Positions 15,001-18,000 of a stretch of DNA of 28,758 nt are shown in pieces. A program made the position numbers. The number at the start of each line of letters is the position of its first letter. The first letter of the stretch is position 1. The DNA is from a virus. The stretch is taken from UHGV virus genome UHGV-0099614. The stretch is one strand, 5' to 3'.

Positions 15001-18000
15001 AGACATACCCCATACTGGATGCCTCCTGATGTTGTACAGGGTTATGCCTGTAATCAGCTAACTTAACGACGCCCATGCTTCACTCCTGCTTTGGCTAGTC
15101 TGTAAACACCAACAAGGCGCTCTGCGAACGCCCTGTTATTTGCTGCGGCTACCACTAATCCCTCAGGTGAATCAGGGTGTCGAATCTCTTCTTTTTCCTG
15201 GTATTTCTTACGACGTTTTGTCATAATTACTCCTGTGGATTGATCCAGTCTTTCTACATCAGGCCTCGAAGAATTCGCCGTTCTTCGGGGCTTTTTCTTT
15301 TGTCAGCATTCTGGCTACTTTCTTAGCCAGTTCCGCCAACTCCTCGTCTTCAACACCCCATTCAAGAACAGCCAGAAGCATTCCCATTTTTGGGATGAAG
15401 CTGTCTTTCCATCGCGAAATTTGCGATTCATTAATCCCTAACGCGTCGGCAACCTTTCGCTGGCCACGTACAGCAATTCGATTCAGGATGTTGCTTGTAA
15501 TTGCATTCGCTTTCTTGCGAGTACTTGTAAGTTGCATATGTAAGTATTTCCTTAACAAATAAGAAGTTATGCGCATCAACTTATGCGCGTTGTATTCCCG
15601 CATTTCGGCGGGAATGATGACCATGACTGTTAAAGAGCGGTGTTACTATTTGTTTTTCTTGTTGCTTGGGAAAGGACGAACTTCCTCTCCAATCACACTG
15701 CCATCAGGCTTTACCGTAACCATGATGTTACGGCCTGCCAGAATGGCCTTGCTGATAGCGCACTGGATTACACCAAAGTCACTGGCTGCTTTAGCCTGTC
15801 CATGGATTTTGGCGTAATCGGCAAGTGTCATTCGAATCATATGCACTCTCCGTTATTAACCATGAACAAAGAATACTACAGGTATTCAAAGCAATCAATA
15901 CTCAGGGTATTTTTAGTTTAAGTACCTTAGCTATTAGAATTAAGCTATGGAAAATAAAAAATCACTGACGACAGAACAGCTCGAAGACGCTAAGCGGCTT
16001 AAGGCTTTGTATGAGTCAAAAAAGAAAGAATTGGGAATAACCCAATACTCAATCGCTGATGAACTGGGTATCACCCAAGGAGCGGTAGGGCATTATCTTA
16101 ATGGCAGAAACGCGCTAAACGTTGAGGTTGCATCTGGTTTTGCACGATTGTTGCAAGTCTCAATTGCTGATTTTAGCCAGTCAATTGCTGCCAAGGTTGC
16201 AGAACAGGCAGAAAGCCTTAAGAGCGATGCCAACGTAAGGTATGCAGGGGAATACAGAGCAGGAAAGAGGTATCCGGTGTTAAGCAGTATCCAGGCTGGC
16301 TCGTGGTGTGAAGCATGCGAACCATACACCATTAAAGACATAGATGTTTGGCTTGAGTCTGACGCGCATATTCAAGGTAATGCGTTCTGGCTTAAAGTGG
16401 AAGGTGATTCAATGACGGCACCGGTTGGGTTAAGCATTCCAGAGGGAACATTCGTTCTTTTCGATACCGGAAGGGAGGCGATCAACGGCAGCTTGGTCAT
16501 AGCAAAACTTTCTGACTCTAACGAAGCAACATTCAAGAAGCTGATAATCGACGGCGGAAATAAATACCTCAAGGGACTTAACCCTGCATGGCCTCTCGTG
16601 CCAATCAATGGAAACTGCAAGATTATAGGCGTTGCAATTGAGACAAAACTAAGGCTGGTTTGATCACGCAAGGGGCGCTTATGGTTGGAACCGCTATAGC
16701 AAGCTTTTTTGGGATGTTGGCAATCTCGACAATTTACGGCTTAGCGCATGCTTTTATTGCGAAATCTCTATCAGAAAAAATAAGCCAGGCTTGGGCGCAT
16801 AGATCAGCTCGTTTCATGATTCTGGTGATCATGGCAATACAAGGGATATCTGCATTTATCCTCTATGGATCAAGCTTATACCTATTGTATCAAGGCGCGA
16901 CATTTACGCCTTACACCAGTGATTACGGAACTCTATACGATGGTAGTGAAGACATCTCTATGGCTTGGATTGTCTTTGGTTTATCTATGGCCGTGTCTGT
17001 TGTAGCAGACATCATTAAGGTAATTCTCGTCTTAACCTTCGCTGACTAACCCATAATCCCGGCAGCAATAGCTATCGGGATCCACTTCACATATCCCGCA
17101 TAAAAAGCACTGAACAAGCAGACACCGAAAAAATAAATATCCTTTGTATTCATTTGCTTATCATTATTTTACCAAAAATAAATACCTTGGGTATTTACAC
17201 AATAAAATACCTACAGTATTCTTTAGCCATCAGCAGGACGCTGGTAGCCAAACGGAACAGATTGGCAGGCTCTTTAACATTGATGGGATTGTCCCGCCGA
17301 AATGCGGGAACCAAAGAGTAGTTGGCTTTGGGGTGTGGTGAAGCCAGCTAGTCACTGGCAAGTGCTTACCTACTGTTGAGCGGTGAAGAGCTCCCAACGC
17401 TAGCAATAGCGTGGACGAGATGGGGAGCTGCGGGCGATAAGGCCGCCATAACGCGCACGTTGTCGCATGGAAAAATCGCTGGGGTGCCGGTTATACCCCT
17501 CCGAATGAGACTCAACAAGCTGGAGCTAGACTACCAGCCACCACACCACCAAAGCTAATCATCTGAGGAACAGAAAATGTTAGACATCATGACCAACCCA
17601 ATTCTCGGTGGTTTAGTTACCACATTCGCCATCTGCTTCGGTTTCACTAACCGCAGAGAAAGCGAAAGATAACTTCATGCCTAACTTCATGTTTTCCACT
17701 CGCGACGTGCTGGCGATGCTGGATGAGCTGGAGAAGATGCAGGCGCAATCGTCCAAATGGTGCGAAGCCTTCCATAAAGCCGTTTCCGTTGGCGCTCGGT
17801 ATGAGGAGCGGATTGCTGAACTGGAAGCACGGGAAATATCGCTCCCAGAACGTAGCAGTATGCTTCATCGAACAGATTTTCACGATGATTACCAAACGGT
17901 AATGGCATACAAAGTTTCTGAAGTCATCGCTGCAATCCGCGCTGCTGGTATTCGCATCAAAGGAGAGTGATATGAGCACTGGATGATAAACAAGGCATTA

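What the first reader, a model, noticed from the sequence alone, without database searches (positions are those of the whole stretch)
16664..17049. Four-helix membrane protein translationally linked to cI in the rexAB position: candidate exclusion or abortive-infection factor
In lambda the genes co-transcribed with cI from PRM are rexA/rexB. Here a single small polytopic membrane protein starts 17 bp after the cI stop with its own SD, with no RexA-sized partner. Lysogen-expressed membrane proteins in this slot are classic superinfection-exclusion or abortive-infection determinants, and this one belongs to no family I recognise.
Basis: partly seen in the sequence, partly recalled or inferred. 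Interest (0 to 1): 0.6.

Follow-up and report, generated by a model that had tools for sequence, protein, structure and literature searches.

The report
HkaS: membrane protein riding with cI
The ORF is a real, conserved gene, already catalogued in 2001 as hkaS of coliphage HK620, that encodes a small three-pass inner-membrane protein made together with the prophage repressor; it is a reasonable but untested candidate for protecting lysogens from other phages.

Summary
Window 16681-17049 (+) is a 122-aa gene. It starts 17 nt after the cI stop and has its own Shine-Dalgarno sequence. No promoter or terminator lies between it and cI, and no second gene precedes OL/pL.

It is not unrecognised: it is hkaS of phage HK620 (97% aa identity, annotated "unknown") and belongs to PHROG 6534.

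AlphaFold (pLDDT 89.5) and the positive-inside rule give three transmembrane helices (N-out, C-in) plus a short cytoplasmic amphipathic helix. This is not a four-TM bundle.

The family is a narrow ORFan of Escherichia, Salmonella, Hafnia-type and Buttiauxella prophages. It always sits directly behind a cI carrying the same C-terminal domain: 146/146 E. coli genomes and 16/16 phage records. It travels across four virion types.

It is under purifying selection (dN/dS 0.14-0.20; pN/pS 0.30; 94/95 copies intact).

It has no sequence or fold relationship to RexB, SieB, any Pfam family or any PADLOC model. I found no functional study.

The cI-N slot is a known hotspot (rexAB, bstA). Phage exclusion is therefore the best inference (about 0.45), not a demonstrated function. 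The window copy lies in a decayed P22-like prophage whose OR-cI-hkaS-OL segment is intact.

The parts
15871..15936 (.). OR1-OR2-OR3 with divergent pR/pRM, the control region of the cI-hkaS transcript
   Evidence: Coordinates transferred from the HK620 annotation (offset +12899 checked on cI and hkaS). The aligned window segment ending at 15950, which covers this whole region, is base-for-base identical to HK620.
15947..16663 (+). cI repressor (238 aa; HTH_3 + Peptidase_S24), first gene of the operon
   Evidence: Pfam E=5e-24 and 8e-10. 99.6-100% aa identity to cI of HK620, mEpX2 and others.
16670..16675 (+). Shine-Dalgarno AAGGGG of hkaS, 5 nt upstream of the ATG
   Evidence: Read from the sequence. 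An AAGGA/AAAGGA equivalent is kept in Salmonella, Hafnia-type and L006 homologues.
16681..17049 (+). hkaS: 122-aa, three-TM inner-membrane protein. TM1 about 2-27, cytoplasmic loop 28-44 with amphipathic helix 31-38, TM2 about 44-70, periplasmic acidic loop 71-92, TM3 about 93-121.
17056..17081 (+). Stem-loop immediately after the hkaS stop, with no T-tract; role unknown
   Evidence: RNA fold: centroid structure -13.7 kcal/mol; whole-segment z-score only -1.7. Not reported by the terminator scan.
17131..17161 (+). tIMM, the terminator of the cI transcript as annotated in HK620
   Evidence: Annotation transfer only. Neither the terminator scan nor the fold found a canonical intrinsic terminator here, so this is unverified.
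17158..17229 (+). OL3-OL2-OL1 and pL
   Evidence: Annotation transfer. The only promoter-like hit in 15600-17700 is TTTACA-17-TATTCT at 17194-17222.
17268..17309 (+). nutL. Homology to HK620-immunity phages ends at about 17349, so N and the early-left operon are deleted in this window.

Best explanation
The ORF is hkaS, an accessory (moron-type) gene carried at the 3' end of the cI transcript of HK620-immunity lambdoid prophages.

Shown or near-shown:
- It is transcribed with cI and ends before OL/pL.
- It encodes a 122-aa inner-membrane protein with three transmembrane helices.
- The N-terminus and an acidic, aromatic-rich loop face the periplasm. A basic loop with a short amphipathic helix and the invariant C-terminal ...ILVLTFAD face the cytoplasm.

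Inferred from sequence positions only:
- Invariant polar residues S16, Y19, Q54, S106, D110 and K113 lie at similar depth in the cytoplasmic leaflet.

Inferred function:
- The protein is made continuously in lysogens, including this defective prophage, whose OR-cI-hkaS-OL segment is intact.
- It most likely protects the lysogen against heterologous phages by acting at the inner membrane. One route is blocking genome entry, as small Sie proteins do. The other is collapsing membrane function after infection, as RexB and SieB do.
- Because it has no soluble domain and no partner gene, I slightly favour a constitutive, sensor-free block at the membrane over a triggered abortive infection. These data cannot separate the two.
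For: Identity:
- 98.6% nt and 97% aa identity to HK620 hkaS, in the order cI-hkaS-tIMM-OL-pL-nutL.
- PHROG 6534, E=4.6e-79.

Real gene:
- dN/dS 0.14-0.20.
- pN/pS 0.30, against 0.06 for cI at equal synonymous diversity.
- 94/95 copies intact.

Topology:
- Three hydrophobic segments.
- AF2 pLDDT 89.5, with helices 2-29, 31-38, 41-74 and 89-121.
- K+R count is 4-6 in loop 28-44 against 0-1 in loop 71-92 in all six lineages.

Expression logic:
- 17-20 nt gap with a conserved SD.
- No internal promoter or terminator.
- OR/pRM identical to HK620.

Linkage:
- 146 of 5426 complete E. coli genomes carry the cI, and the same number (146 genomes, 147 places) carry hkaS, always next to a LexA-family gene in the rows shown.
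- The 16 phage records with hkaS are the same 16 with the >=99% cI.

Independence from virion type:
- Found in Lederbergvirus, Lambdavirus, Hendrixvirinae and Sepvirinae.
- By contrast, the injection blocker sieA always sits between genes 16 and 9 of P22-like prophages (PMC10883804).

Accessory status:
- Serratia OS31, with a 71%-identical cI, has nothing in the slot.
- HF4s carries a frameshifted copy yet is a functional temperate phage (bioRxiv 10.1101/2021.06.09.447823).

Precedent:
- rexAB and bstA occupy the same cI-N hotspot (PMC8585504).
Against: - No experiment or publication on HkaS function was found.
- No similarity to any known exclusion or defence protein: Pfam, NCBIfam and PADLOC are negative; RexB and SieB hhalign probabilities are 0.6% and 1.6%.
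- Fold searches return only generic helical bundles.
- The slot also carries genes with no obvious defence role.
- Amino-acid changes are conservative, and nothing suggests diversifying selection of the kind often seen in arms-race genes.
- The Hf4s lysogen stays sensitive to phages G7C and phiKT. This is uninformative, though, because that hkaS copy is frameshifted.
Confidence: 0.45

Rival explanations
1. Lysogenic-conversion or host-fitness membrane protein unrelated to phage exclusion. Possible roles include envelope or stress tolerance, bacteriocin immunity or transport modulation. It is expressed with cI simply because pRM is the strongest prophage promoter.
For: - The cI-downstream slot carries diverse cargo. 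Phage 434 has a signal-peptide protein. Erwinia phage 49 has a soluble 200-aa protein. Phage Huey has a PagP-like annotation under its repressor match.
- HkaS polymorphism is conservative, with no sign of an arms race.
- The gene is retained intact in a heavily decayed prophage, as expected for a host-beneficial gene.
Against: - No similarity to any housekeeping, transporter or colicin-immunity family.
- The family is confined to prophage immunity regions and was not found elsewhere in chromosomes.
- Retention in a remnant is equally expected for a defence gene.
Confidence: 0.25
2. Accessory regulator of the phage's own lysis-lysogeny biology. Being made from pRE/pRM transcripts, it would modulate a membrane-associated host factor, for example FtsH/HflKC or another protease acting on CII, CIII or O. 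RexB has been reported to affect ClpXP substrates (my own knowledge, not checked here).
For: - The most conserved surface is cytoplasm-facing: K33, Q36, W38, H40, R44 and the C-terminal ILVLTFAD.
- Linkage to cI is absolute in E. coli.
- HK620's cIII is annotated as shortened.
Against: - Relatives with a 65-71% identical cI lack the gene.
- In Buttiauxella it follows a cI with a different DNA-binding domain and a different cro type. The linkage is therefore physical adjacency to the cI 3' end, not to a particular switch.
- HF4s, with a frameshifted copy, is still temperate.
- Other carriers have an intact cIII.
Confidence: 0.12
3. Holin-like or lysis-timing protein. It shares the class I holin topology of three TM helices, N-out and C-in.
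For: Topology and size (122 aa, 3 TM, N-out/C-in) resemble class I holins such as lambda S (my own knowledge).
Against: - It lies in the lysogenic operon, not the lysis cassette. This prophage has its own holin at 14104-14307.
- It has no charged C-terminal tail: the protein ends ...TFAD right after TM3.
- It matches no Pfam holin family.
- Constitutive holin expression in lysogens would be lethal.
Confidence: 0.03
4. Spurious ORF, with no protein made.
For: Annotated only as hypothetical. One phage copy (HF4s) is frameshifted in an A6 run.
Against: Conserved length, start and SD down to 52% aa identity. dN/dS is well below 1. 94/95 copies are intact. The AF2 model is confident.
Confidence: 0.02

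Closest known systems
HkaS of coliphage HK620 (GenBank AF335538, AAK28867; PHROG 6534)
   Same: Same gene: 97% aa identity, same 122-aa length, and the same place between cI and tIMM/OL.
   Different: Nothing of substance differs. The window copy sits in a decayed prophage rather than a viable phage. The function of HkaS itself is unannotated ('unknown').
Lambda RexB (with RexA), the abortive-infection pair downstream of cI
   Same: Position in the cI transcript before OL. Small polytopic inner-membrane protein made in lysogens (PMC8585504; PMC11436027).
   Different: No sequence relationship (hhalign probability 0.6%; no Pfam hit). Three TM helices rather than the four usually drawn for RexB (the four is my own knowledge). 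No RexA-like sensor gene. No internal promoter like pLIT was found.
Single-protein inner-membrane superinfection-exclusion proteins (P22 SieA, HK97 gp15, T4 Imm)
   Same: Small integral inner-membrane proteins expressed from the prophage or resident phage that act alone (PMC10883804; PMC11436027).
   Different: No sequence similarity. No such family appeared in the Pfam scan at E<=1. sieA is tied to the ejection-protein/tailspike module of P22-like prophages, whereas hkaS is tied to cI and moves across four virion types.
BstA of Salmonella prophage BTP1
   Same: Encoded directly downstream of, and presumably co-transcribed with, the prophage repressor in P22-like/lambdoid prophages (PMC8585504).
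   Different: According to that paper, BstA localises to sites of phage DNA replication and has an aba self-immunity element. HkaS is a 122-aa membrane protein with no PADLOC match.
Lambda/P22 SieB
   Same: Prophage-encoded membrane protein that acts alone in exclusion (my own knowledge).
   Different: Unrelated sequence (hhalign probability 1.6%). SieB lies next to N in the pL operon region. HK620 and HK140 carry a separate SieB-like gene as well as hkaS.

Membership tests
HkaS / PHROG 6534 | Full-length sequence match to the family profile | tested here: met
   phrog_6534 E=4.6e-79, residues 1-122 of 122. 97% aa identity to HK620 HkaS.
HkaS / PHROG 6534 | Position immediately downstream of an HK620-type cI and upstream of OL/pL | tested here: met
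Lambda RexB | Sequence homology to RexB | tested here: not met
   hhalign of the family alignment against lambda RexB: probability 0.6%. No Pfam family at E<=1 other than TssN at 0.066.
Lambda RexB | Adjacent RexA-like sensor gene | tested here: not met
   Only 17 nt separate cI and hkaS, and only 108 nt separate hkaS and OL3. No conserved ORF lies in either interval.
Lambda RexB | Co-transcription with cI, located between cI and OL | tested here: met
   Gene order and absence of an intervening promoter or terminator. Transcription itself was not measured.
Lambda RexB | Ion-channel or depolarising activity triggered by infection | not testable with these tools
   Needs membrane-potential assays in infected cells.
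SieB (lambda/P22) | Sequence homology | tested here: not met
   hhalign probability 1.6% against lambda SieB. No Pfam hit.
Known anti-phage defence proteins (PADLOC-DB v2) | Match to any defence-system HMM | tested here: not met
   0 families at E<=1.
Class I holins | Three TM helices, N-out and C-in | tested here: met
   Hydropathy, AF2 and positive-inside analysis.
Class I holins | Charged cytoplasmic C-terminal tail, location in a lysis cassette, and holin family homology | tested here: not met
   The protein ends ...LTFAD directly after TM3. It is located in the cI operon. No holin Pfam hit.
Superinfection-exclusion (DNA-entry block) proteins | Blocks genome entry without affecting adsorption | not testable with these tools
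   Needs EOP, adsorption and DNA-ejection (K+ efflux or labelled-DNA) assays.

The most novel reading that the evidence does not exclude
HkaS is a stand-alone membrane defence protein of a new family. It has no sensor partner. On its own, expressed from the repressor transcript, it excludes heterologous phages. It would do so either by closing an inner-membrane entry route or by infection-triggered depolarisation through an oligomer built around the invariant Q54/S106/D110/K113 intramembrane cluster. That would make it a minimal, RexA-independent counterpart of Rex.
Probability: 0.3. Interest if true: 0.55.

Novelty: new member of a known kind. Interest (0 to 1): 0.35.

Why it matters
Genes co-transcribed with prophage repressors are among the most highly expressed prophage genes. 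In the studied cases (rexAB, bstA) they decide which other phages can grow on a lysogen.

HkaS is carried by about 2.7% of complete E. coli genomes, including EHEC Stx-phage lysogens. It moves as a cassette with one immunity type across podo- and siphoviruses.

If it is an exclusion factor, it would be a very small, single-gene system absent from current defence databases. It would affect predictions of phage susceptibility for therapy and typing. It would also offer a simple model for how a three-helix membrane protein stops a phage.

If it is not, it is one more uncharacterised moron in a known hotspot.

Tried and rejected
1. 35-aa hydrophobic antisense ORF at 17153-17046, convergent with hkaS and annotated in HF4s. 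Rejected: in Salmonella loci it has a premature stop after 10 codons, and it is absent in Hafnia-type and L006 loci.

2. TTG start at 16660 (129-aa form used by some gene callers). Rejected: not conserved.

3. Rfam scan of 15500-18000. Only a meaningless scaRNA hit at E=0.44.

4. Fold searches.
- BFVD: best E=0.26.
- PDB Foldseek: best E=0.51.
- All are generic helical-bundle matches.
- afdb50 was unavailable.

5. Exhaustive profile search of 1.84 billion cluster representatives. Only the family itself plus a 44-aa fragment.

6. hhalign against RexB, SieB and the phage 434 cI-downstream protein. No relationship.

7. Composition. hkaS GC is 42.0% against 45.6% for cI, which is not a distinctive foreign signature.

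8. Diversifying selection. Not seen; the changes are I/V/L/M, S/T and A/S swaps.

9. Literature searches for HkaS, HK620 exclusion, mEpX2/HK140/HK630/HF4s and cI-N hotspot defence. Nothing on this protein. The first search was wasted on the herbarium acronym HKAS.

10. P0007 in the first alignment is a double-frameshift assembly artefact. A cleaned six-lineage alignment (A3) was used for conservation.
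Full report
**1. What is in the sequence**

The + strand carries a 238-aa repressor at 15947-16663. It has HTH_3 (E=8e-10) and Peptidase_S24 (E=5e-24) domains.

Seventeen nucleotides after its TGA, preceded by AAGGGG at 16670-16675, an ATG at 16681 opens a 122-codon frame. The frame ends with TAA at 17047-17049.

A longer reading from TTG 16660 (129 aa) exists in this window. It is not conserved: Salmonella homologues have an in-frame TAA immediately before the ATG, and the Hafnia-type spacer is out of frame. I therefore take 16681 as the start.

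The promoter/terminator scan of 15600-17700 found no promoter-like or terminator-like site between cI and this ORF. The only promoter-like site in the whole stretch is at 17194-17222, which is pL.

**2. It is a known, named but uncharacterised gene**

Megablast of 15900-17400 against 50,697 phage records matches HK620, mEpX2, HK140, HK630, HZ41, HF4s, phi296/phi367, 611R6 and two Stx2c phages. Identity is 98.6-99% over 97% of the query.

In the HK620 record (AF335538) the ORF is hkaS, product 'unknown'. The annotated order is OR3/2/1 - cI - hkaS - tIMM - OL3/2/1 - pL - nutL - N.

The window aligns to HK620 without gaps through nutL and diverges at about 17349. The OR/pRM region is base-for-base identical to HK620.

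Database results for the protein:
- PHROG 6534, 'unknown function', E=4.6e-79.
- No NCBIfam or PADLOC match.
- No Pfam family other than a noise-level TssN hit at E=0.066.

**3. Protein anatomy**

Kyte-Doolittle analysis shows three hydrophobic stretches, at about 2-27, 44-70 and 93-121.

AlphaFold2, run on an 8-sequence alignment, gives mean pLDDT 89.5 and pTM 0.76. It places helices at 2-29, 31-38, 41-74 and 89-121, with a tiny beta-hairpin at 78-86. This gives three membrane spans plus one short loop helix, not a four-TM bundle.

Across six lineages:
- Loop 28-44 has 4-6 Lys/Arg.
- Loop 71-92 has 0-1 Lys/Arg and is acidic in the E. coli type (D81, D87, E90, D91).

By the positive-inside rule the topology is N-out, loop 1 in, loop 2 out, C-in.

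Thirty-eight of 122 positions are invariant at 52-100% identity. They fall into five groups:
- One face of TM1: G3, S8, G11, I15, S16, Y19.
- The cytoplasmic helix and the start of TM2: K33, Q36, W38, H40, A43-R44-F45.
- Q54 in TM2.
- The periplasmic end of TM2: Y67-L-L-Y70, T74.
- TM3: W96, F99, S106, D110, K113 and the last eight residues, I-x-VLTFAD.

From their positions in the helices, S16/Y19, Q54 and D110/K113 should lie at similar depth in the cytoplasmic leaflet. This is an inference; I could not inspect the model coordinates.

**4. Distribution and linkage**

The word-indexed search of 5.8 billion proteins found 12 clusters. They come from E. coli, Hafnia and Salmonella and go down to 52% identity.

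The exhaustive profile search of 1.84 billion 50%-cluster representatives found only one full-length representative and one fragment. A scan of GTDB species representatives added one Buttiauxella copy.

In every locus examined the gene lies 17-20 nt after a cI and about 350-490 nt before an N gene.

Linkage counts:
- In complete E. coli genomes, cI occurs in 146 of 5426 (147 places). hkaS occurs in the same number of genomes and places.
- In phage records, the 16 with hkaS are the same 16 with a >=99% cI.

The cassette sits in four virion backgrounds:
- Lederbergvirus: HK620, HF4s.
- Lambdavirus: HK630.
- Hendrixvirinae: mEpX2, HK140.
- Sepvirinae Stx phages.

In Buttiauxella the upstream cI keeps a C-terminal S24 domain that looks closely similar to the window's (read by eye). 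Its HTH domain and cro are of a different type. Whole-protein cI identity there is about 60% by tblastn. The linkage is therefore to the 3' end of cI, by physical adjacency, and not to a particular operator specificity.

**5. Selection**

- Between lineages, cI stays 86-95% identical while HkaS falls to 52-82%. hkaS dN/dS is 0.14-0.20 where dS is measurable.
- Within 86 E. coli-type loci, hkaS has 20 synonymous and 20 non-synonymous segregating changes (pN/pS 0.30).
- In the same loci, cI has 37 synonymous and 7 non-synonymous changes (pN/pS 0.06). Synonymous diversity is the same for both genes, 0.236 against 0.229.
- The amino-acid changes are conservative.
- 94 of 95 copies are intact.
- The exception is HF4s, which has a 1-nt deletion in an A6 run. 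That phage still lysogenises (bioRxiv 10.1101/2021.06.09.447823). So the gene is dispensable for the temperate life cycle, or the deletion is a homopolymer sequencing error.

**6. The slot is variable**

Occupants of the position behind cI in related and reference phages:

| Phage | cI identity to window | Downstream of cI |
|---|---|---|
| Serratia OS31 | 71% | nothing before the OL-like region |
| Erwinia phage 49 | 65% | 200-aa soluble protein |
| Phage 434 | 52% | 134-aa protein with a signal peptide, unrelated to HkaS (hhalign 0.06%) |
| Lambda | not compared | rexA-rexB |
| BTP1 | not compared | bstA |

Owen et al. [quoted passage not shown] They note that the cI-N interval is a known hotspot of mosaic diversity and that it also holds rexAB.

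**7. Comparison with known exclusion proteins**

- hhalign of the family alignment against lambda RexB gives probability 0.6%.
- Against lambda SieB it gives 1.6%.
- sieA, a proven inner-membrane injection blocker, always sits between genes 16 and 9 of P22-like prophages. That is next to the ejection proteins it targets (PMC10883804).
- hkaS instead travels with the repressor across podo- and siphoviruses. This argues against a block specific to the carrier's own virion type. It favours either a general membrane-level block or a function unrelated to virion type.

**8. Mechanism: what is shown and what is inferred**

Shown or near-shown:
- The gene is real and under purifying selection.
- It encodes a three-TM inner-membrane protein.
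- It is the last gene of the cI transcription unit by gene order.
- It is accessory.
- It is confined to prophage immunity regions.

Inferred: it is expressed in lysogens and protects them from other phages at the inner membrane. I put this at about 0.45.

Within that reading I lean slightly to a sensor-free entry block, because there is no soluble domain and no partner gene. The alternative is triggered depolarisation of the RexB/SieB kind, which the invariant intramembrane Asp/Lys/Gln cluster would suit.

Rivals:
- A host-fitness membrane protein unrelated to phages (0.25).
- A modulator of the phage's own lysogeny decision through a membrane-associated host factor (0.12).
- A holin-like role (0.03).
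- A spurious ORF (0.02).

**9. Context in this window**

The cassette lies in a decayed P22-like prophage, from about 4113 to 17349. Its parts, in order, are:
- integrase, then gtrA, gtrB and a gtrC-like gene
- tailspike, an Mnt/Arc-like repressor, DUF2824, an Sf6-type needle and an HNH endonuclease
- a gp10-like protein, then a lysozyme fragment and a holin
- a DnaB C-terminal fragment, then cII, cro, cI, hkaS and OL/pL/nutL

N and the early-left operon are missing. An Ea22-like fragment (17677-17970) and an integrase C-terminal fragment (17983-18279) follow. Comparison with strain CT02 shows the more complete arrangement.

The intact OR-cI-hkaS-OL block in an otherwise gutted prophage suggests that the repressor transcript, and hkaS with it, is still expressed here.

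**10. Verdict**

- The sequence is already known as hkaS.
- It is best filed as a new, uncharacterised member of a known kind: prophage cargo in the cI-N hotspot.
- Interest is moderate.

Noticed in passing
window 22149-25775 (- strand): A 1094-aa protein with a PIN-TPR-GreABC domain (PF20698, E=6e-16), preceded by a 109-aa HetE-N domain protein (PF20701, E=5e-32). This is a predicted conflict or defence-type pair with no PADLOC match. It sits on an island with an AlpA regulator (19184-19375), a rolling-circle Rep-like protein (20343-21395) and a resolvase (26755-27381).
   Followed up: partly
window 4113-17349: Heavily deleted P22-like prophage next to mlaA and a yfdC-like gene. It keeps int, gtrA/B/C-like genes, the tailspike, an Mnt/Arc-like repressor, the needle, HNH and a gp10-like gene. 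It also keeps a lysozyme fragment, a holin, a DnaB fragment and the whole cII-cro-cI-hkaS-OL block. Replication gene O, N and the early-left operon are gone.
   Followed up: partly
window 17677-18279: An Ea22-like C-terminal fragment is followed directly by a 98-aa C-terminal fragment of a tyrosine integrase. Strain CT02 (L002) has the full-length versions with a whole early-left operon between them, so these mark deletion scars.
   Followed up: partly
L021 2333-3369 (Buttiauxella sp.): An HkaS homologue (55% identity) follows a cI whose S24 C-terminal domain is close to the window's. Its N-terminal HTH domain and the neighbouring cro are of a different type. This indicates a recombination joint inside cI, with hkaS staying attached to the cI 3' half.
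   Followed up: partly
L018 (phage HF4s), equivalent to window about 16775: A 1-nt deletion in the A6 run frameshifts hkaS in this otherwise 99%-identical phage. hkaS also contains a T6 run at 16705. One database protein (P0007) looks like a double frameshift between these two runs. These could be sequencing errors or slippage-prone sites.
   Followed up: partly
window 17046-17153 (- strand): A 35-aa hydrophobic ORF convergent with and abutting the hkaS stop, annotated as a gene in HF4s. It is not conserved in Salmonella or Hafnia-type loci, so it is probably not a gene.
   Followed up: yes
window 17056-17081 and 17131-17161: A stem-loop without a T-tract lies just after hkaS. The site annotated as tIMM in HK620 shows no canonical intrinsic-terminator structure in my scans. 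How the cI-hkaS transcript ends is therefore unclear.
   Followed up: partly
L015 2609-3013 (phage 434): The gene overlapping the 434 cI stop encodes a 134-aa protein with an N-terminal signal peptide, annotated 'repressor protection protein'. I found no paper using that name. It is another uncharacterised occupant of the cI-N slot.
   Followed up: partly
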